Part shown: positions 1 to 56,120 of the stretch, one piece after another
How the letters are laid out: each line of letters opens with the position of its first letter
How positions within the stretch are numbered: the stretch's first letter is position 1
Sequence record: OR455461.1
Length of the DNA: 64,000 bases
Source of the DNA: Staphylococcus phage AH12
Strand: one strand, 5' to 3'
The notes under the pieces: model-generated
What the model saw: the letters and a program-made list of their open reading frames with translations, nothing else
Told to the model about the DNA's origin: nothing
Databases searched by the model: none
Translations under genes and position numbers: made by a program

Positions 1-412
1 ATTTAATCATATTTACATAATAAGTTTTTCCATCAATATTAAATTCAAGAGTATTATATACTTCCTTATTAGCATACATAGATATTTCAGACATTTGCTC
101 TTCAGAGAATAATGAATCATCAGAACTATAAGCCCATTCCAATAATATTTCACGTTTAACTGCTTCTAAAGAACCAATTTGTCTTTTTTGTTTTGCTAAC
201 CAATCTTCATCTTTACCTAATTCTTTATATGAATATTCTATATACATGAATTCATTATTTGAATTATCTTCCATGTATTTTTCTAATTTAGAAATTCCTT
301 CTTCTTCACCATTAATGAAATAATCATATATTTTTTCATTCCATTGAGCTGCTTCATTCATTTGTTGAAAGAAAAATTGCCCATTGTCTTCATCAAGAGT
401 ACTCAAATTTAT
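1..412 (-). CDS. terL: Large terminase subunit, exon 3 (partial; continues past the window start)
   Basis: Minus-strand frame is open from about 412 to position 1 (TLDEDNGQFFFQQMNEAAQW...). It follows intron core A and continues the T4 gp17-like alignment after the TTTP motif (T4: TTTPNGLNHFYDIW). Confidence 0.5.
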   Translation of the reverse strand, partial: MNLSTLDEDNGQFFFQQMNEAAQWNEKIYDYFINGEEEGISKLEKYMEDNSNNEFMYIEYSYKELGKDEDWLAKQKRQIGSLEAVKREILLEWAYSSDDSLFSEEQMSEISMYANKEVYNTLEFNIDGKTYYVNMIK

Positions 413-570
413 TTATTCTTTATAATTATATAAAGTTTAGACTATATCACAATAATTATAATAATTATTATCCATTATTTAGTCGTTGAACATCATTTAG
501 ATGATGCTGATTAATTTTATAATATTTCAGCAATTAAATAGAAAAGCCCAGTTAATTTTAGGCGTAGTTG
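405..570 (-). ncRNA. Group I intron core A (ORF-less) in terL; boundaries approximate
   Basis: Reverse complement carries P4/P6-like TTAATTGCTGAAAT...AATCAGCATC (502-536), R-like GTTCAACGACTAAAT (477-491) and S-like GATATAGTCT (439-448). Same family as the six other copies in the window. Confidence 0.6.
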
Positions 571-718
571 TAATTAGAAGTCCATAAGGAGTTCCGTTTC
601 TTTTAGCAATTGCAGAAGCTGTGGAGTTAGCTGGACGCATGGCCTCAAACATTGTTTGATTATGTTTAATAAATGCCCACTCATCTAGCCAGAATAATGG
701 CACAGTACCACCTCTCAT
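555..718 (-). CDS. terL: Large terminase subunit, exon 2 (Walker B and TTTP coupling motif); ends approximate
   Basis: ORF 527..718 encodes LFWLDEWAFIK...GLLITTTPK. This matches the T4 gp17 Walker B and C-motif region (MIYIDECAFIP...IIITTTPNG). It lies between intron cores B and A. The in-frame tail INWAFLFNC* probably runs into intron sequence. Confidence 0.55.
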
Positions 719-925
719 TTTTCGTTAACTATATGAATTTCATATAGATCAGACTATATCTTAACAATTTCAATGATATTAATATTTAGTCGTTGAACTA
801 CTATTTTAAGTAGATGCTGATTTATTTAATGATTTTCTCAGCAATTAATTAATTTTATAGCGAGCTAAGGTTATAAATTAATTTTTAAAAATAATTTCCA
901 TATATGCCATGGAATGATTTAACCC
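715..925 (-). ncRNA. Group I intron core B (ORF-less) in terL; boundaries approximate
   Basis: Reverse complement carries TTAATTGCTGAGAAAATCATTAAATAAATCAGCATC (813-848), GTTCAACGACTAAATAT (784-798) and GATATAGTCT (751-760). The upstream exon stops right after KAG*, and the next exon starts at MRGGTVPLFW. Confidence 0.6.
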
Positions 926-1569
926 GCTTTATTTGCTTGCTCTTTATTGTTTGGAGGACTGACTGTCTTAATAGTGTTATTATTGGATGCTAATCTAAAT
1001 TCATTTTCAGCATCTTTATCATTCTTATCACCAAAATTTGCCATCACATAATCCGGTAAACATTTTTCTTTAAATAAGTTCTTAAGACGTTTTAAATTCT
1101 CCACTGTATCAGCATAAGCTTTATGTGTAAATAACATTGTATAGTTATTACCTACTAATAACATAATCCATGAATAATAACATACTGCAGAATATGTTTT
1201 ATAGTGCTGACGAGGTAACATTATTGCAGTATCTAAGTTATGCAACATACAGAATGTCATAGCCAAGTTACCTCTATGAAGTTCATACATTACTTTTCCA
1301 CCTGGAACAGGAACTCTAATAACTTCTCTTAAATAAAACCATATATTAAGTTTAGCTTCCCTAATAACACGAGTTTTCATTTCATTATCTAAATCTTCAT
1401 CCCAAGGATCAACACCAATTAATTTCTTATCATATAGAGTTAATGGTAAACCATAATTTTGTATATTATTGTCTTTAAGTTCTTTAGCAACTTTTAAAAA
1501 GCTTATATTATTAGTCTTATAATCGTAATAAACTTTTTTCTTTAATTTTGTTATAGCCATAATCTTCAT
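919..1569 (-). CDS. terL: Large terminase subunit, exon 1 (ATPase Walker A); 3' end approximate
   Basis: 216-aa ORF contains LPRQHYKT, which resembles the terminase Walker A motif (T4 gp17 SRQLGKT). It is followed by an intron core, then exon 2 with the Walker B motif. Confidence 0.6.
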   Translation of the reverse strand: MKIMAITKLKKKVYYDYKTNNISFLKVAKELKDNNIQNYGLPLTLYDKKLIGVDPWDEDLDNEMKTRVIREAKLNIWFYLREVIRVPVPGGKVMYELHRGNLAMTFCMLHNLDTAIMLPRQHYKTYSAVCYYSWIMLLVGNNYTMLFTHKAYADTVENLKRLKNLFKEKCLPDYVMANFGDKNDKDAENEFRLASNNNTIKTVSPPNNKEQANKAG

Positions 1570-1583
1570 TCACTTCTTTCTTA

Positions 1584-2753
1584 CTATCTTGTCTTAGTAT
1601 TAATTCTATTAGAATATTTTATTATTCTTTGAATTTCATCTAATTGTTTCTTGAGTTCTTTTTTAACTTCATTAGAATTATTATTGTTACTAATTTCAAA
1701 TTTTAATGTATTAATAACTGCATCAATTGAATCTGTTGGATAATCTTTATAACTTTTAATAAAACCACTCATAGGGTATAAAAGTCCTCTCATAGCTTTA
1801 GCTATTAAATTATTAGATCTTTTTTCAGATTTCATTCTAAATGCTTTATACACTAAATCATAAAATTTAACCATTTCTACAGAATATCCATAAAGAGCAG
1901 GTAATTGGTTAGCAGATCTTTCTGAAAGATTATAATCCATAGTAGTTTTTCTATTGAAACTTGCACTTGTTAGTAACATTCCTGTTCCCATAAATGAACC
2001 CATTGATAAGCTAGCACCTATAAACACAGCAGTTAAACACATTACTAATGTTGACATTGCAAGAATCATAGGAGCTGCTAATACTCTATTTCTTCTATTG
2101 TCAGTTTCTATTTCTTTAGTGTACTTAAACTGTACTGGTTTATTATCTCTATATTTGAGTTCGAATGTAGGAGTTTTGCCACCAGAGAGTACATTAATTT
2201 CTACAGGGAAAAATAAATTATGTCCTATTTCATGTAATAATAAAAAAGTATACATTCTACCATTAAGAGTAGTAAATTCTTTTTGACCTGATGCTTTCTT
2301 TTCGATAAAATATCTCAATGAAGATAATTCAATATTTACTTCAATTTCTCTAGGTTTAGAATAGTAAACACCATTCTTTTCTTCAATAACAATTTTAGTG
2401 ATTCCATCTGTAATATTTCTAATATCTTCAGGTTTAATTAATGTGTGTGCTACTGAACCTACTTTAAATTTATCTTTTCCACGTTTATCAGCTTCAATAA
2501 ATTTTAATTTCATATTAGTGTTAAATAATTTCTTAGTAATATCTGATATTCTTTTTGCAATATCATTATATTCATTCTTATCAATTACATCAAAATCAGA
2601 TTTTTCGAAGTTATATTTACTAATTAATGAATCAAATTCTTCATCTATTTCTCTAAGTAATGAAGTATTTTTACCAAAGTTAAAAGCATCTTCATTTAAA
2701 TTCATTACTTCTTTTATTTTTTTCATTTGCATTTCTTCTTGTAAAGATACCAT
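1584..2753 (-). CDS. Putative Zn-metallopeptidase (HExxH) with a C-terminal hydrophobic segment
   Basis: 389-aa ORF with FLLLHEIGHNLF (an HExxH motif) and a hydrophobic stretch VLAAPMILAMSTLVMCLTAVFIGASL. Lies between the capsid gene and terL. Confidence 0.45.
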   Translation of the reverse strand: MVSLQEEMQMKKIKEVMNLNEDAFNFGKNTSLLREIDEEFDSLISKYNFEKSDFDVIDKNEYNDIAKRISDITKKLFNTNMKLKFIEADKRGKDKFKVGSVAHTLIKPEDIRNITDGITKIVIEEKNGVYYSKPREIEVNIELSSLRYFIEKKASGQKEFTTLNGRMYTFLLLHEIGHNLFFPVEINVLSGGKTPTFELKYRDNKPVQFKYTKEIETDNRRNRVLAAPMILAMSTLVMCLTAVFIGASLSMGSFMGTGMLLTSASFNRKTTMDYNLSERSANQLPALYGYSVEMVKFYDLVYKAFRMKSEKRSNNLIAKAMRGLLYPMSGFIKSYKDYPTDSIDAVINTLKFEISNNNNSNEVKKELKKQLDEIQRIIKYSNRINTKTR

Positions 2754-2761
2754 ATAATTTT

Positions 2762-2809
2762 CCTTTCTTTTTATAAAATAAACCCATACACCTCAGAGAG
2801 ATGTATGGG
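2762..2809 (-). terminator. Rho-independent terminator after the major capsid gene
   Basis: Hairpin CCCATACACCTCAGAGAGATGTATGGG (2783-2809), followed on the minus strand by TTTATTTTATAAAAAG. Confidence 0.5.
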
Positions 2810-2837
2810 TATATAAATAACAAAAGTAAAGTTACTC

Positions 2838-4433
2838 TTAACGAGCGTATACTGAACCGTTGTTGTTTTTGATTGTAATACGTCCAATGATCGGAACGAA
2901 TGATTCAACTGTATATCTACGAGTCATCATCATGTTAGGAACATTAGGGTTACGAGTATTCAAGTATCCTCCACCATTTACAACATTGAATGTGTAAGGG
3001 TAGAACATGAATGTTTTATAGTTGTCTTGTTGAGGAATTGCAATAATAGTCAATTCACCTTGACGAACTAAGTCAGAACCGATAATACGGTAGTTAGCTG
3101 TACCAGAAGCAGCACCTAATGAATAGTTAATTTTAATTCCATTAGAGTAAGAATCTTCAGTACCACCATTAAATGTCCAAGAAACGTTAGGGATTAAACG
3201 AACGTCAACTGGGTTACCTACGATAACGAATTGTACATCGTAAAGTTTGTAATCATTTTTCATTGATTGAGTAGTATGGTCAATTACTTCACGTAGACCT
3301 TCTAACCAATCTTTAGGGTGAGCACTGTAATCACTATGTGGATAAACATCGAAGCTGAAGTGATATTTAGCGTCAGTTTCTCTGTATTCGTGATCTAAGA
3401 ATTCAATGATATCTAAGTCAACTTTTTGACTAGATAATTGAGACATTGTTTCAGATAAACGAGCAACTCCATCGATATCATAAGTAGCTTTCATATCTTG
3501 AATTACTTCAAGAGGTACTGTAGCCTCGATGTGTTGAGCTGTATCGATAGTGATATCTTTACGATCTAAACCAAGCTCGATGTTAGTAGCTGAAGTATGT
3601 TGTTCAGAAGCTACATAACCTTTAATTTTAATTGCTTCTAATTTACCAGAAGTTGAAGCTAAAGCTAAAGTACCGTTAGAAACGTCAACTTTACCTAATA
3701 CTGTATCAACAGCAACTTCACCGTCACCATTTGTAGGGTATTTAACTTCTGCCATTAGAGAGTCATTTTCCATTTTAATAACTTGAGAACCTAATTCAAC
3801 AAATCCTTTTTCATTTGTACGAACATCAAAAGAATCGCTCCATTTAGCTTCTACAACTTTGAATTTACGGTCAACACGATCAATGCCTTTACGAACTTCT
3901 TTACCTTCTTTTAAGCCATCGAATAAATCGTAAGCTTCAACTTTACCACCAGAAATTGCAACTTCTTCTTTAAGAGGAACTAATCCTACTAAAGTTTCAG
4001 GTGTGTTATTAATTGATTCAGGTAATGCATGTTTGTTTCCATCAGCATCTACAACGTAAGGTGTTAAGATTGGCACTGTGAATTGTGGTTTATTAGCAAC
4101 TTGAGTTGGTAAAGCTTCAGTTAAAGCTAAACGAGCCCAAAGTTTAACTAAGATAGGCATAGATAATGAAGCATAAGGTTGGATAGGCCCCATTGAAGAC
4201 TCTAATAAGATTTCTTCACGAGTGTTATCTAACATACTTTCTAAAGAAAGTTGCTCCTCTTCATCAAAACCTTCTAATAATTGATCTTTATAACTTTCAA
4301 ATACTACGTCATCAGTAGCAATTGAAGCGAAATCATTACCAACTGTACTTAATTTATATTGTTCGTTGATATTTTGTTCGATATCCTCTAAGAGTTTAGA
4401 GAATTCATCTTTAATTCTATTTGCACTCAACAT
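2838..4433 (-). CDS. Major capsid protein, T4 gp23-like
   Basis: 531 aa. The C-terminal region YRIIGSDLVRQGELTIIAIPQQDNYKTFMFYPYTFNV matches T4 gp23 YRVYIDQYAKQDYFTVGYKGPNEMDAGIYYAPYVALT. NPNVPNMMMTRRYTV matches NFQPVMGFKTRYGI. Size is similar to gp23, a terminator follows, and an acidic scaffold-like gene lies upstream. Confidence 0.6.
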   Translation of the reverse strand: MLSANRIKDEFSKLLEDIEQNINEQYKLSTVGNDFASIATDDVVFESYKDQLLEGFDEEEQLSLESMLDNTREEILLESSMGPIQPYASLSMPILVKLWARLALTEALPTQVANKPQFTVPILTPYVVDADGNKHALPESINNTPETLVGLVPLKEEVAISGGKVEAYDLFDGLKEGKEVRKGIDRVDRKFKVVEAKWSDSFDVRTNEKGFVELGSQVIKMENDSLMAEVKYPTNGDGEVAVDTVLGKVDVSNGTLALASTSGKLEAIKIKGYVASEQHTSATNIELGLDRKDITIDTAQHIEATVPLEVIQDMKATYDIDGVARLSETMSQLSSQKVDLDIIEFLDHEYRETDAKYHFSFDVYPHSDYSAHPKDWLEGLREVIDHTTQSMKNDYKLYDVQFVIVGNPVDVRLIPNVSWTFNGGTEDSYSNGIKINYSLGAASGTANYRIIGSDLVRQGELTIIAIPQQDNYKTFMFYPYTFNVVNGGGYLNTRNPNVPNMMMTRRYTVESFVPIIGRITIKNNNGSVYAR

Positions 4434-4617
4434 AATTTTTTCTGCTCCTTTTCAAATATATTAGCGTGTAGTTTTATATTATTAATTTTATTATATAAAT
4501 TTGTTAAGAAATAAAATAACCATTATATTCAAGGGTATTTTTACTTTCATATGTTATTGTTATTAAATTTAAAAAGAATAATAAAACTATTATTAAAAGT
4601 AATTAAAATCATTTATT

Positions 4618-6376: not shown

Positions 6377-6600
6377 ATGTCTAAAGATATTAAAGCTTAC
6401 ATTATTAATGAATCTAATACAACTTCTCAACCAGAAGTAGTTCAAGATAATAATAAATCAGTTAGATTCATTGCTGAGTTACAAGAAGCTGATAGACAAA
6501 ACCGTAATGGTCGTGTTTATCGTAAAGATGTTATCCAAAGTGGTTTAGATAGTCCAGTAGTACAAGAAAAATTAGCAAGAAGAACTTTTTATGGTGAGTT
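6377..6600 (+). CDS. Prohead core protease (T4 gp21-like), exon 1
   Basis: VRFIAELQEADRQNRNGRVYRKDVIQ...TFYGE aligns with T4 gp21 GIFLQAEVVNRNKRLYPKRILEK...ALGELNHP. The ORF stops right at the intron. Confidence 0.6.
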
Positions 6601-6756
6601 TTAGGTTAAAATGGCTCACGTTAAATTATATTAATTGCTGAAATCTTATTTAAAGTAATCAGCATCAACTTAATACAAGTTGTTCAACGACTAAATATAT
6701 AACCTAGATGATATAGTCTAATCTTTATTAAAATAATAAAGAATAATAATTTGCAG
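6600..6756 (+). ncRNA. Group I intron core C (protease intron 1, ORF-less); boundaries approximate
   Basis: TTAATTGCTGAAATCTTATTTAAAGTAATCAGCATC (6631-6666), a variable hairpin AACTTAATACAAGTT, GTTCAACGACTAAATAT (6682-6697) and GATATAGTCT (6709-6719). Interrupts the protease at the catalytic His codon (exon 2 resumes at GHP). Confidence 0.6.
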
Positions 6757-7013
6757 GTCATCCTTTAAGTGATGAACCTAAACGTCAAATGTATATTGAT
6801 CAACGTAATATTTCTCATATTATCACTAGAACTTGGTGGAATGGTAATAAATTAATGGGAGAAGTAGAAACAGCTCAAACATCAGCTGGTAAGGATATGA
6901 AAGGTTTAATTGGACAAAAATCTGATGTATCTTTCTCAATGCGTGGTTTTAGTAAAATAGAAAGAAAACCTAATGGTGAAGTAGAAGTTACTAAACCTTT
7001 AAGATTAATCTGT
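6757..7013 (+). CDS. Prohead core protease, exon 2
   Basis: Frame is open from 6750 (..GHPLSDEPKRQMYIDQRNISHIITRTWWNGNKLMGEVE...SFSMRGFS). Matches gp21 NHPP...MWWKGNDVYGRARV...GVSSRGLGS, including the catalytic His and Ser regions. Confidence 0.6.
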
Positions 7014-7200
7014 TAAATTATAGCAGCTTTATATAGTGATATATAATGAAAAAGAATATTAATTGCTAAGAAGTTTAATTAAGCCAATTAGCATCAACTT
7101 AATACAAGTTGTTCAACGACTAAATATATTCGCTCTTACTAAGAGTATGATATAGTCTCGTCTATATGGAAACCATATAGCTAAGATGTACGTATGACTG
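7014..7200 (+). ncRNA. Group I intron core D (protease intron 2); boundaries approximate
   Basis: TTAATTGCTAAGAAGTTTAATTAAGCCAATTAGCATC (7059-7095), GTTCAACGACTAAATAT (7111-7127), GATATAGTCT (7149-7158) and a P9-like CTATATGGAAACCATATAG. Confidence 0.55.
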
Positions 7201-7360
7201 GGTAAAAAATTATTGCTTAGTATAAATAATATTAATTGCTGGAAATCTTTATTAAGATAATCAGCATCGGATTAAATTCCGTTCAACGACTAAATATATT
7301 ACCTAATATAAATTAGGAAGATATAGTCTCGTCTATATGAAAATCATATAGTTAAGATAA
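7200..7360 (+). ncRNA. Group I intron core E (protease intron 3); boundaries approximate
   Basis: TTAATTGCTGGAAATCTTTATTAAGATAATCAGCATC (7233-7269), a variable hairpin GGATTAAATTCC, GTTCAACGACTAAATAT (7281-7297) and GATATAGTCT (7320-7329). A micro-exon between cores D and E is possible. Confidence 0.55.
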
Positions 7361-7711
7361 CGTGTAATTCCATCACATCAAGATTCTTATATCCAAAATA
7401 TAATTTCAGAGAATCATAATAATTACAATACTAGTGATTTACAAATGGTTAATGAATCAATTGATATGTTTTCTAACGGTAAAGTTACAGAATTTTCTCC
7501 TAGAGAAGTTTTAACTTATATTAAAGAAAATTCAGATAATATCAAATATATCGCTGAAGATATGGGATTTGATAAAGCTGATGAATCTAATATCATTTAT
7601 GATAAAGGATCTCAAATAGCTTCAATTAAAGAAAGTAATAAAACTATTAAAGTTTTCTTAGAAGAATCTGTTCTTAATGGACTTGATGATTTCTATAGAA
7701 ACTTTAAATAA
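7361..7711 (+). CDS. Prohead core protease, terminal exon
   Basis: Frame is open from 7361 (RVIPSHQDSYIQNII...MVNESIDMF...FYRNFK*). It directly follows intron core E, so the annotated Met at 7445 is probably internal. Confidence 0.5.
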   Translation, partial: RVIPSHQDSYIQNIISENHNNYNTSDLQMVNESIDMFSNGKVTEFSPREVLTYIKENSDNIKYIAEDMGFDKADESNIIYDKGSQIASIKESNKTIKVFLEESVLNGLDDFYRNFK

Positions 7712-54254: not shown

Positions 54255-54455
54255 TTACTTATTCACTTTGATTGCATAATCATAAAGTATCAAAGCAGTA
54301 TTAAAAGCTATATTATCTAATTTATTAATTCCCCTTTTAATTCTACCAATTTTAGCTCTACTTATTCCAGTACATTTTTCAATTTCATAATTACTAATCT
54401 CTTTATTATTTAATAGTTTTTCTATCTCATATTTAACTTCTTCAGCTTTATTCAC
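54255..54455 (-). CDS. Small XRE-like HTH protein (GTG start); overlaps the end of the beta-prime exon 2 in another frame
   Basis: ISNYEIEKCTGISRAKIGRIKRG is a classic HTH_3-like helix-turn-helix. Confidence 0.4.
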   Translation of the reverse strand: MNKAEEVKYEIEKLLNNKEISNYEIEKCTGISRAKIGRIKRGINKLDNIAFNTALILYDYAIKVNK

Positions 54456-54657
54456 TAGCTTTAATACCTACATTTTTTGATTTAGGGTTATTTAGTAAAT
54501 AAACAGCTATTTGTGAGTCTTTATTAAGCGAGTAAGTTCTATTAAATAATCCATCATTATATGAAATTAATTGATTTACTGGATCTTGGACTTTTAACTG
54601 TTCGTATTGTTCTTCTGAAAATAGTGCTATGATGTTTAAAGTGTCACCATCATACGT
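54448..54657 (-). CDS. RNA polymerase beta-prime N-terminal fragment, exon 2 (catalytic DxDGD motif)
   Basis: Minus-strand frame (N)YDGDTLNIIALFSEEQYEQLKVQDPVNQLISYNDG...VGIKASE* matches E. coli [39 protein letters not shown]. Downstream of two intron cores. Confidence 0.6.
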   Translation of the reverse strand, partial: TYDGDTLNIIALFSEEQYEQLKVQDPVNQLISYNDGLFNRTYSLNKDSQIAVYLLNNPKSKNVGIKASE

Positions 54658-54830
54658 TTATCTTAATCTATATAAATATTATCATATAGACGAGACTATA
54701 TCATTACCATTTAAGGTAGAATATATTTAGTCGTTGAACAAATTATATTAATTTGATGCTGATTAATTTAATAATCTTCTCAGCAATTAATATTCTTTTC
54801 TATAAATCTCTCAATTTAAAGCGACTATTA
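54658..54830 (-). ncRNA. Group I intron core F (second of two in the beta-prime gene); boundaries approximate
   Basis: Reverse complement carries TTAATTGCTGAGAAGATTATTAAATTAATCAGCATC (54754-54790), GTTCAACGACTAAATAT (54725-54739) and GATATAGTCT (54693-54702), plus a P9-like CGTCTATATGATAATATTTATATAG. Confidence 0.55.
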
Positions 54831-54998
54831 TTTAATCGGCCATTTGTATTAACTTCATAGAGATTTTTCTATAAAGATTAGACTATATCAAACTCATATT
54901 AGTGAGTGAATTTATTTAGTCGTTGAACAATCATCTTGATTGATGCTGATTAATTTAATAATCTTCTCAGCAATTAAAATTCTTTTGACATTATATTA
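54830..54998 (-). ncRNA. Group I intron core G (first of two in the beta-prime gene); boundaries approximate
   Basis: Its P4-P6 segment is identical to that of core F (54942-54977). GTTCAACGACTAAAT (54914-54928) and GATATAGTCT (54880-54889). Confidence 0.55.
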
Positions 54999-56120
54999 CT
55001 ATAATGAAAGGCTACCTTTATAACCCATACCAGCAAGTATATTATTACTAATACCTACTACTGATGATTCTATATCTTGAATTATATCTTTAATTTTCAA
55101 TATTTGAACAGAGCTTTCACTAATTGAGGGATTTCTATTTAAAATAACTCTCATTCCATTTTCAGTTTTATCAACTAGTTCTCTCATATATTTATATACT
55201 TTAGGATTAAATGTATCTAATGCTCTGTCTAATATTTCTTCACCTTTAGCTAAAGGAATATTTTCTGTTACATACATTAAATTTGCTAAGATAGGTTTAT
55301 ATACTTCTAAGAAGATAGTGTAATTTAATCTGATTTCATTTAATTTAAGGTCAGGTGCTGGAACAATTACTGAACGTGCAGAGAAACCAACACGACTACC
55401 CATTAGTAATTTACGAATAGTTCCACCTTTACCTTTAATATTCTCATTAATTACACGATCACTAATATTAATACTATCATTCTGAATTTTACTTAATAGA
55501 TTTAATTTTTGTAACTCCACTGAATCATCTGTATAATGTCTATCAAGTTCTTTAATACTATTACTATGTGCAATTAATAAATTATAATCTTTATTAATTT
55601 CAGAATGTCTAAAAGTTTTAGTAGCTTTGTTAACTGTAGCAGGTCTTAATTTAGGACTAAATACAGTTACATAATTTTGGAATAGTAAATCAGATAAATA
55701 CCATTGTACTACTCTATTGTAATCTTTAGTTTTACGTTTATCACGTTTAACTTCTTCTTTAAGAATTTTTAAGAAATTCTTTCTAAATTCAATTAAACCA
55801 ATATAAGAGTTATGATCATCTTCAGGTTCAATTACATTACCATTCTCATCAATAGGTTTTTCAGAACTAATAATTTCTTGGAATCTTTTATTACCAATTA
55901 ATTTTTTAACACGTTCATATCCTAATGGATTTAATATATAATTATTACCTAAATCTACAATAGCTTCATTAGTAATATTATCTGCTTCTGAATCAGGACC
56001 GAAGATTTTTTCACTGAAAATACCATCTTCAGTGAAATCTCCTTTTTTATCTATTGATTCATGATTAGTTACAACTGGAACATTTTCTAAATCCTTTTTC
56101 TTGAGTAAAAATCTAACCAT
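54999..56120 (-). CDS. RNA polymerase beta-prime N-terminal fragment, exon 1
   Basis: [10 protein letters not shown] matches E. coli [23 protein letters not shown] matches [46 protein letters not shown] matches [37 protein letters not shown] matches PVLLNRAPT. Confidence 0.75.
   Translation of the reverse strand: [373 protein letters not shown]

What the first reader, a model, noticed from the sequence alone, without database searches (positions are those of the whole stretch)
54448..56120. Beta-prime (N-terminal fragment) gene carries two tandem intron cores exactly at the catalytic NADFDGD motif
Exon 1 ends ...ILAGMGY and exon 2 begins (N)YDGDTLN, so the universally conserved DxDGD Mg-binding loop is rebuilt by splicing. 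The two cores (54658-54830 and 54830-54998) have identical P4-P6 segments, which implies recent duplication or spread. The pair could form a twintron or flank a 1-2 codon micro-exon.
Basis: partly seen in the sequence, partly recalled or inferred. Interest (0 to 1): 0.8.

Follow-up and report, generated by a model that had tools for sequence, protein, structure and literature searches.

The report
Two mini-introns split polymerase active site
In a staphylococcal jumbo phage, the gene for the catalytic subunit of the phage's own RNA polymerase is interrupted, within the codons of its magnesium-binding loop, by two adjacent miniature group I (self-splicing type) introns separated by a six-base exon. 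The kind of element is well known, but the six-base exon is unusually short and public annotation misses it.

Summary
The minus-strand gene 56120..54448 encodes the N-terminal half of the beta-prime-like subunit of the non-virion RNA polymerase of a Machias-like Staphylococcus jumbo phage. Two complete group I intron cores without ORFs lie side by side in the codons of the A-D-Y-D-G-D Mg-binding loop.

Corrected anatomy:
- exon 1: 56120..55023
- intron 1: 55022..54841 (182 nt)
- micro-exon GCCGAT: 54840..54835 (Ala-Asp)
- intron 2: 54834..54655 (180 nt)
- exon 3: 54654..54448

In-silico splicing gives a 436-aa protein that matches an intron-less homologue at 433/436 residues with no gaps. A covariance model and 55 distinct relatives show strong compensatory covariation and a conserved U·G pair at the 5' splice site.

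- Exon 1 most likely ends ...AGMG, not ...GMGY.
- Only P4-P5 (38 nt) is identical between the two introns. They are 79% identical overall, so this is not a fresh duplication.
- It is not a twintron.

Precedents exist: the AR9 intron in the same motif, the Twort 23-nt exon, and placozoan cox1 micro-exons. This is therefore a new member of a known kind, of moderate interest. No RNA data were available, so splicing is inferred.

The parts
55023..56120 (-). Exon 1 of the nvRNAP beta-prime N-terminal subunit gene (366 codons, ends ...ILAGMG, last codon GGT)
   Evidence: ORF listing. Orthologue of Machias gp002 and S6 S6_2210. Boundary set by the P1 U·G pair and by colinearity with intron-less homologues.
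54841..55022 (-). Intron 1: group I intron without ORF, 182 nt, ends in G at 54841. The exon-1 reading frame runs on for 7 codons to a TAG inside the intron.
   Evidence: Rfam RF00028 24.8 bits, E 5.7e-4. R1 168 bits. Helices P1-P9 located by coordinate.
55009..55026 (-). P1 of intron 1: GGGU|UAU-AAAG-GUAGCCU. It has U·G pairs at 55023 (preferred 5' splice site) and at 55020 (alternative).
   Evidence: Sequence. P1 also forms in the MFE fold. The family U·G sits at the equivalent position in 44 of 52 sequences.
54835..54840 (-). Micro-exon GCCGAT = Ala-Asp, the first Asp of the D-x-D-G-D triad. CGAU also forms the exon strand of P1 of intron 2.
   Evidence: Identical in Machias. Eight of the 4096 possible hexamers encode Ala-Asp (own arithmetic).
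54655..54834 (-). Intron 2: group I intron without ORF, 180 nt, ends in G at 54655
   Evidence: Rfam RF00028 36.9 bits, E 1.3e-7. R1 168 bits, E 1.4e-28. Helices located.
54822..54838 (-). P1 of intron 2: CGAU|UA-AAUAA-UAGUCG, with U·G at 54835
   Evidence: Sequence. Rfam alignment. MFE fold.
54448..54654 (-). Exon 3 (YDGDTLN...IKASE, 68 codons plus TAA at 54450..54448)
54940..54977 (-). 38-nt P4-P5 block of intron 1, identical to 54753..54790 in intron 2
   Evidence: Longest common substring and coordinates
54753..54790 (-). 38-nt P4-P5 block of intron 2, identical to the block in intron 1

Best explanation
The gene for the N-terminal half of the beta-prime-like subunit of the phage's non-virion multisubunit RNA polymerase is interrupted by two independent, side-by-side, miniature group I introns. 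They carry no ORF and sit inside the codons of the catalytic Mg-binding loop.

Proposed mechanism:
- Each intron folds on its own into P1-P9 with the P3/P7 pseudoknot.
- Each pairs the last four exon bases with its internal guide sequence. Intron 1 pairs GGGU and intron 2 pairs CGAU, each ending in a U·G wobble.
- Each is removed by the usual two transesterifications, started by guanosine and finishing after the terminal G (54841 and 54655).
- The 6-nt exon GCCGAT between them must be kept. It serves as the 3' exon of intron 1 and the 5' exon of intron 2.
- The mature mRNA reads ...GGT|GCC GAT|TAT GAT GGT GAC..., which is ...GMG-AD-YDGD..., and encodes a 436-aa subunit.

The introns belong to a multi-copy family of 154-206-nt group I introns in some Staphylococcus jumbo phages. 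That family has colonised conserved sites, and the loop-coding stretch is an insertion hot spot.

Shown: the sequence anatomy, the structural covariation of the family, and colinearity of the predicted product. Inferred: that splicing occurs, its order, and that the micro-exon is retained.
For: Core identity:
- Full-length matches to Rfam Intron_gpI.
- The model built here scores 168 bits for each intron; both were among its five seed sequences.

Structure under selection in the family (55 distinct sequences):
- 95.3% of cells form standard pairs, against 64% in shuffles and 35-42% in slid controls.
- 41 of 43 pairs show compensatory changes.
- The 5' splice-site pair is U·G in 44 of 52 sequences.
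- P7 is 100% paired.

Product:
- 436 aa, 433/436 identical and 0 gaps to intron-less P0001.
- S6 and Madawaska also read GMGADYDGD.

Splice rules validated elsewhere in the window:
- Three introns in the prohead protease gene, including a second tandem pair with an 11-nt exon, give a 280-aa product with 0 gaps to the intact SA1 gene.

Codon support:
- The Asp codon before intron 2 is GAT, supplying the required U, whereas three of four intron-less alleles have GAC.

Window versus Machias:
- The gene is colinear and the micro-exon identical.
- All 8 intron substitutions lie in loops or tails, or keep the pair: A-U to G·U twice, U·G to C-G once.

Folding and precedent:
- The MFE fold of the whole region shows P1, P2, P4-P5 and P9 of both introns, and P6 and P8 of intron 1, as separate local helices, z = -3.6.
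- The AR9 orthologue carries an annotated spliced intron in the same motif.
- In gut 'Jug' phages, metatranscriptome reads support splicing of 37 of 76 predicted small group I introns (PMC12880540).
Against: - No transcript data exist for this phage, so splicing and retention of the 6-nt exon are inferred.
- Both Rfam scores are below the curated 50-bit gathering threshold.
- The covariation alignment was fitted to the model, which inflates the paired percentage.
- P10 for intron 1 is essentially absent, and only 4 exon bases pair in each P1 (own reading of the sequence).
- The identical 38-nt P4-P5 blocks and identical P7 strands could allow cross-pairing between the two introns and exon skipping, as reported for Twort orf142 (PMC10136302).
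- Introns this small lack the usual peripheral stabilising domains, so they may need a protein cofactor.
Confidence: 0.85

Rival explanations
1. Same two introns, but intron 1 is cut after U55020, the second U·G pair in P1. The product then carries an extra Tyr (...GMG-Y-AD-YDGD, 437 aa).
For: The P1 helix GGGUUAU/GUAGCCU has U·G pairs at both 55023 and 55020, and both choices keep the reading frame.
Against: All intron-less homologues lack this Tyr. At 55020 the splice site would lie at the top of P1 next to the loop. In the family, the conserved U·G is followed by two more pairs, as in intron 2 and intron D.
Confidence: 0.06
2. The pair acts as one composite unit, either a twintron or a hybrid ribozyme. 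The main product would use the 5' splice site of intron 1 and the 3' splice site of intron 2, skipping GCCGAT to give ...GMG-YDGD.
For: Exon skipping between two similar adjacent group I introns is documented for Twort orf142 (23-nt exon) and Coxiella 23S rRNA (34-nt exon) (PMC10136302). The two introns share an identical 38-nt P4-P5 block and identical P7 strands.
Against: The skipped product loses the first Asp of the invariant D-x-D-G-D triad and has no counterpart among homologues. The 6 nt encode exactly the missing Ala-Asp and are identical in Machias. Each intron has its own P1 and terminal G, and P3, P6, P8 and P9 differ between them. Neither intron lies inside the other.
Confidence: 0.03
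3. No splicing takes place. The gene is a pseudogene, or is expressed as a 373-aa fragment as annotated for Machias, possibly with a separate C-terminal piece.
For: GenBank annotates only the 373-aa ORF in Machias, and in PB50 two separate CDSs plus an endonuclease.
Against: The fragment would end before the catalytic Asp triad of an essential enzyme. I saw no in-frame ATG, GTG or TTG near the start of exon 3 (own reading). Exon 3 is conserved and in frame. The intervening RNA has a group I core, and its family shows covariation.
Confidence: 0.03

Closest known systems
Bacillus phage AR9 g270 intron (nvRNAP beta-prime N-terminal subunit; carries the HNH endonuclease gene g271). The same site is occupied in Staphylococcus phage PB50 and in ENA contig L092.
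   Same: A group I intron in the orthologous gene, inside the same D-Y-D-G-D codons. The AR9 CDS is annotated as a join. PB50 and L092 are interrupted at the same GGT|GAT position.
   Different: Those are single, larger introns. The AR9 and PB50 introns carry an endonuclease ORF, and the intron lies between Gly and the last Asp. That is 6 nt downstream of the intron 2 site and 12 nt downstream of the intron 1 site. Here there are two introns without ORFs and a micro-exon.
Staphylococcus phage Twort orf142, introns 2 and 3 (Landthaler & Shub 1999, as summarised in PMC10136302)
   Same: Two highly similar group I introns side by side in one phage gene, flanking a short exon. Cross-talk between the two ribozymes is a concern in both cases.
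   Different: The Twort exon is 23 nt and here it is 6 nt. The Twort introns are larger and of subgroup IA2, while these lack P7.1/P7.2 (subgroup not determined). Exon skipping was shown experimentally there and is untested here.
Placozoan mitochondrial cox1 single-nucleotide micro-exon between two group IB introns (PMC5436844)
   Same: A micro-exon flanked by two independent group I introns that supplies part of a functionally essential codon. It was likewise overlooked in the first annotation.
   Different: That case is organellar and eukaryotic, with a 1-nt exon and unrelated introns. It has RNA-seq support, which is lacking here.
Small group I introns of gut 'Jug' jumbo phages (PMC12880540)
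   Same: Abundant short group I introns (about 206 nt on average) interrupt essential genes of jumbo phages. The exact core pattern of the introns studied here matches 83 IMG/VR stretches on contigs of 25-401 kb (mostly over 200 kb), and model R1 finds 248 copies there, some 11-15 nt apart.
   Different: That the IMG/VR contigs are Jug phages is my inference from contig size only. That paper does not describe micro-exons or tandem pairs; the word 'exon' does not occur in it.

Membership tests
Group I intron (Rfam RF00028) | Conserved catalytic core: P3-P4-P5-P6 and P7-P3'-P8 with the P/Q/R/S sequence elements | tested here: met
   Full-length alignments to RF00028 for both copies. All helices located by coordinate. 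The R element GTTCAACGACTAAAT and the S element GATATAGTCT match exactly.
Group I intron (Rfam RF00028) | Score at or above the curated gathering threshold (50 bits) | tested here: not met
   36.9 and 24.8 bits, and no hit in whole-window scans. This is a detection threshold tuned to larger introns, not a structural feature. The family-specific model gives 168 bits, though both introns were among its seeds.
Group I intron (Rfam RF00028) | Helices maintained by compensatory substitutions among relatives | tested here: met
   41 of 43 pairs show changes on both sides. 95.3% of cells are paired, against 64% in shuffles and 35-42% in slid controls. P7 is 100% paired. Caveat: the alignment was fitted to the model.
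Group I intron (Rfam RF00028) | 5' splice site after a U that forms a U·G wobble in P1 with the internal guide sequence | tested here: met
   U55023·G and U54835·G. The same position is U·G in 44 of 52 family members.
Group I intron (Rfam RF00028) | Terminal G immediately before the 3' splice site | tested here: met
   G54841 and G54655. The exon junctions they define restore the homologous protein with 0 gaps.
Group I intron (Rfam RF00028) | Guanosine-dependent self-splicing | not testable with these tools
   Needs in vitro transcription and splicing, or RNA from infected cells.
Twintron (intron within an intron) | One intron interrupts the other and must be removed first to reconstitute it | tested here: not met
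   The two model hits are contiguous and not nested. Each is complete (model positions 1-187). They are separated by 6 nt that are required in the coding sequence.
Mobile group I intron with a homing endonuclease | An endonuclease ORF inside the intron | tested here: not met
   No sense-strand ORF of 30 aa or more lies wholly within 54655..55022. The only ones listed there are 33- and 35-aa antisense ORFs. The PB50 and AR9 introns in the same motif do carry such an ORF.
Multisubunit RNAP beta-prime (Pfam PF00623, Rpb1 domain 2) | Invariant D-x-D-G-D Mg-binding loop in a continuous polypeptide | tested here: met
   Met only after in-silico splicing...[12 protein letters not shown]. Homologues carry PF00623.

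The most novel reading that the evidence does not exclude
The pair is not a local duplication. It results from ectopic spread of a miniature group I intron family without endonuclease genes, which retargets itself through a 4-nt guide sequence by reverse splicing. The retron-type reverse transcriptase that these Staphylococcus jumbo phages encode might assist. On this reading, occupying the loop-coding hot spot with two introns shields the site from the PB50/AR9-type intron endonuclease of competing phages. The 6-nt exon would be the shortest exon known between two group I introns outside organelles. Optional skipping of it would produce a catalytically dead beta-prime subunit.
Probability: 0.12. 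Interest if true: 0.7.

Novelty: new member of a known kind. Interest (0 to 1): 0.42.

Why it matters
- Annotation: the public record of the closest relative, Machias, lists a 373-aa truncated catalytic subunit. The real product is most likely 436 aa, with the first catalytic Asp supplied by a 6-nt exon that ORF-based tools cannot see.
- RNA biology: two 180-nt ribozymes sharing 38 identical core bases and a 6-nt exon form a natural test bed for splice-site choice, exon skipping and minimal group I architecture. Introns of this family are only 154-206 nt.
- Phage evolution: at least four distinct insertion sites fall within about 15 nt of the Mg-loop codons in related phages. Closely related alleles (99% protein identity over exon 1 or the whole product) carry no intron, one endonuclease-bearing intron, or two mini-introns. 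This shows rapid intron turnover at an RNAP active site, which bears on intron-mediated competition between jumbo phages.

Tried and rejected
Searches that found nothing:
- Rfam at the gathering threshold, and a whole-window E-value scan, returned nothing. Only the 1-kb local scan showed the two matches.
- The search for related loci with the spliced protein in IMG/VR found no relative.
- Exact search for the micro-exon junction GGCCGATTAAATAATAGTCG found nothing in viral or metagenome contigs. The arrangement is known only from this window and Machias.

Literature gaps:
- The J Virol version of Korn et al. and the Twort PNAS paper are not held, and the preprint's Table 4 is an image. I could not see whether the authors counted exons for this Machias gene.

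Technical limits:
- cmsearch drops one intron of each tandem pair, because my model includes 8 nt of 5' exon and the hits overlap. This needed a sub-range search. It also means pairs with exons shorter than 8 nt are undercounted.
- P5 could not be counted with one structure line, because two alignment registers coexist. It is supported only by eye: G·U/A-U in introns F and G against G-C/U·G in D and C-G in E.

Unresolved or rejected readings:
- The larger AR9-type introns in L091 and L096 sit near GCT|GAT, but I could not reconcile a U at the 5' site and a terminal G at the 3' site with an in-frame ADFDGD junction.
- 'Recent tandem duplication' is rejected, since the two introns are 79% identical and intron 2 is 81% identical to intron D.
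Full report
**What is at the locus**

The feature lies on the minus strand. ORF 56120..54999 (373 aa) ends ...[20 protein letters not shown]. A second in-frame stretch, YDGDTLNIIALFSEEQ...IKASE*, runs from 54654 to the TAA at 54450..54448.

The window is about 97% identical over this gene to Staphylococcus jumbo phage Machias and about 96% to vB_StaM_PB50. The ORF is annotated there as the non-virion RNA polymerase beta-prime subunit, N-terminal part. The upstream 540-aa ORF is annotated as beta, N-terminal.

Related phages S6 and Madawaska have an uninterrupted 436-codon gene reading ...[17 protein letters not shown]....

**Are the two repeats group I introns?**

A 1-kb Rfam scan aligns the whole Intron_gpI model twice. 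The hits are 54673-54844(-) at 36.9 bits, E 1.3e-7, and 54859-55032(-) at 24.8 bits, E 5.7e-4. Both fall below the 50-bit gathering score, which is why whole-window scans are empty.

Each copy has the classical elements, with coordinates checked:
- P (AAUUGCUGAGAAG)
- Q (AAUCAGCAUC)
- R (GUUCAACGACUAAAU)
- S (GAUAUAGUC)
- a P1 hairpin and P2
- the P3/P7 pseudoknot
- hairpins P5, P6, P8 and P9
- a terminal G

I built a covariance model from these two introns, two others in the window and one from phage LY01. It scores both at 168 bits, partly by construction. It also finds 248 relatives in 84 sources totalling 794 kb (80 IMG/VR phage loci plus the window and three phage loci).

On the 55 distinct sequences of the best 150 hits:
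- 95.3% of cells form standard pairs, against 64% in shuffles and 35-42% when partners are slid.
- 41 of 43 pairs show compensatory changes.
- The pair at the predicted 5' splice site is U·G in 44 of 52 sequences.
- P7 is paired in every sequence.

The alignment was fitted to the model, which favours pairing, but the slid controls share that bias.

Between the window and Machias the gene is colinear. All 8 intron substitutions fall in loops or tails, or keep a pair: A-U to G·U twice, U·G to C-G once.

The minimum-free-energy fold of the whole 388-nt region forms P1, P2, P4-P5 and P9 of both introns, and P6 and P8 of intron 1, as separate local helices, with z = -3.6.

**Splice junctions and the micro-exon**

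Intron 1:
- P1 is GGGU|UAU-AAAG-GUAGCCU.
- It contains two U·G pairs, at 55023 and 55020.
- The intron ends ...ACAAAUG at 54841.

Intron 2:
- P1 is CGAU|UA-AAUAA-UAGUCG, with U·G at 54835.
- The intron ends ...AUAAACG at 54655.

Between G54841 and U54835 lie six bases, GCCGAT, encoding Ala-Asp.

Joining 56120..55023, then 54840..54835, then 54654..54451 gives 436 aa. This product is 433/436 identical with no gaps to P0001, an intron-less protein from an ENA metagenome contig. It is colinear with S6 and Madawaska.

Leaving the six bases out gives ...GMGYDGD, which lacks the first Asp of the triad (after removing the Tyr). Cutting at 55020 instead adds a Tyr that no homologue has. That site would also sit at the top of P1, unlike the family pattern in which two further pairs follow the U·G. 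I therefore place the site at 55023, but only cDNA can settle it.

One codon detail supports the model. Three of four intron-less alleles use GAC for the Asp before Tyr, while the intron-bearing allele has GAT, which supplies the U needed at the 5' splice site of intron 2.

**The same rules work elsewhere in the window**

The exact R element occurs seven times in the window. Three of these introns interrupt the prohead protease/scaffold gene:
- intron C: 6600..6753
- intron D: 7014..7192
- intron E: 7204..7362

Introns D and E form a second tandem pair around an 11-nt exon, TATGACTGGGT (7193..7203). Applying the same rules (a U·G at the 5' site and a terminal G at the 3' site) gives a 280-aa product. 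It aligns to the intact SA1 gene at 94% identity with 0 gaps, including ...LRLIC-YDWV-VIPSHQ....

**Relationship of the two introns**

The two introns are 79% identical overall. They share one identical 38-nt block covering P4-P5, while P3, P6, P8, P9 and P1 differ, mostly by compensatory changes. Intron 2 is 81% identical to intron D, which lies 47 kb away. This argues for a multi-copy family rather than a fresh local duplication. Gene conversion of the P4-P5 block is possible.

blastn finds at least 26 places matching this pair in Machias and in LY01, 21 in PB50, and 11-12 in MarsHill and Madawaska. It finds none in S6, DC4, PALS_2 or SA1.

**An insertion hot spot**

| Site in the loop codons | Where it is occupied |
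|---|---|
| GGT\|GCN | intron 1, here and in Machias |
| about GCT\|GAT | larger AR9-type intron in Logan contig L091 and ENA contig L096; junction ambiguous |
| GAT\|TAT | intron 2, here and in Machias |
| GGT\|GAT | AR9 (annotated join, HNH gene g271), PB50 (504-aa endonuclease ORF), ENA contig L092 |

LY01 has a 161-nt mini-intron further upstream, at NR|NPS. Alleles with 99% protein identity (P0001 over the whole product, PB50 over exon 1) carry no intron (L090), one endonuclease-bearing intron (PB50) or two mini-introns (this window and Machias). Turnover is therefore recent.

In the IMG/VR loci the same intron family sits in arrays, with predicted exons of about 11, 14 and 15 nt. At least one array lies in a beta-prime-like gene just downstream of an NRQPSLH motif.

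**Mechanism**

Shown:
- the anatomy
- selection on the structure in the family
- a product colinear with intact homologues

Inferred:
- both introns splice by the standard guanosine-initiated pathway
- the micro-exon is retained
- either order of removal works

Only four exon bases pair in each P1. Intron 2 can form a 3-bp P10 (UAU/AUA). Intron 1 has none that I can see.

The shared core segments could permit a hybrid ribozyme and exon skipping, as in Twort orf142 (PMC10136302). The skipped product would be catalytically dead.

How a family without endonuclease genes reaches new sites is open. Candidates are reverse splicing, help from free-standing endonucleases, or recombination. [quoted passage not shown]

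**Comparison with what is known**

- Group I introns in jumbo-phage RNAP genes, including this gene and this motif in AR9, are known.
- Short exons between adjacent group I introns are known: 23 nt in Twort, 34 nt in Coxiella (PMC10136302), and 1 nt in placozoan cox1 (PMC5436844).
- Abundant group I introns of about 200 nt in jumbo phages were reported in 2026, with metatranscriptome support for 37 of 76 (PMC12880540).
- I found no report of a micro-exon of this size between group I introns in a phage. The library searched is incomplete.
- The Machias record annotates only the truncated 373-aa CDS.

Verdict: real, correctly spotted, and a new member of a known kind with an unusually short exon. 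Interest is moderate.

Noticed in passing
window 6377-7711 (+): introns 6600-6753, 7014-7192 and 7204-7362; micro-exon 7193-7203: The prohead protease/scaffold gene carries three mini group I introns. Two form a second tandem pair around an 11-nt exon, TATGACTGGGT. The spliced 280-aa product is colinear (0 gaps, 94% identity) with the intact SA1 gene.
   Followed up: yes
window 404-559 (-) and 716-921 (-): Two more introns of the same family interrupt a gene whose exons include ORFs 919-1569 and 527-718, probably the large terminase. The junctions are predicted from P1 U·G pairs (GCCU/GGGC and GCGGGU/GCUCGC) and terminal G residues, and they keep the frame. They were not checked against an intact homologue.
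   Followed up: partly
window 54255-54455 (-): A 66-aa ORF with weak helix-turn-helix matches (HTH_26, E 4e-4, below the cut-off) overlaps the stop codon of the beta-prime gene. The similarity to Machias stops exactly at 54448, so this ORF seems absent from Machias at that place.
   Followed up: partly
L085 686-1044, L044 4079-4439, L068, L083, L052 10864-12288 and other IMG/VR loci: In 80 IMG/VR phage loci (contigs of 25-401 kb, most over 200 kb) model R1 finds some 240 copies of the same intron family, often in arrays of up to seven within 1.4 kb. Predicted exons are about 11, 14, 15, 20 and 27 nt. One array is in a beta-prime-like gene just after an NRQPSLH motif. These may be the 'Jug' phages of PMC12880540, but that identification was not verified.
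   Followed up: partly
L091 4090-4460 and L096 3600-3975: A larger AR9-type intron sits at about GCT|GAT of the same loop. With a U at the 5' site and a terminal G at the 3' site, no in-frame ADFDGD junction can be made. Either the 5' cut follows a C or G, or something else is hidden there, such as another micro-exon.
   Followed up: partly
L005 2488-2648 (phage LY01): A 161-nt intron of the same family, lacking P9, interrupts the same gene at a different conserved site (N-R|N-P-S, the RxPxLH-type motif). The LY01 loop codons are uninterrupted.
   Followed up: partly
L001 (Machias MW349128) 1501-3173 and L002 (PB50 OR770614) 1500-4538: Public annotation gives a truncated 373-aa CDS in Machias. 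In PB50 it gives three separate CDSs (375 aa, a 504-aa 'homing endonuclease' and a 66-aa fragment) instead of spliced genes. In PB50 I could not find a convincing P1 with a U·G pair for the 5' splice site.
   Followed up: partly
window 54823-54827 (-) versus 54728-54732 (-) and 54917-54921 (-): The guide strand of intron 2 (UAGUCG) contains the same UAGUC as the 3' strand of P7. It could therefore mispair with the P7 5' strand (GACUA) of either intron, which is a possible folding trap.
   Followed up: no
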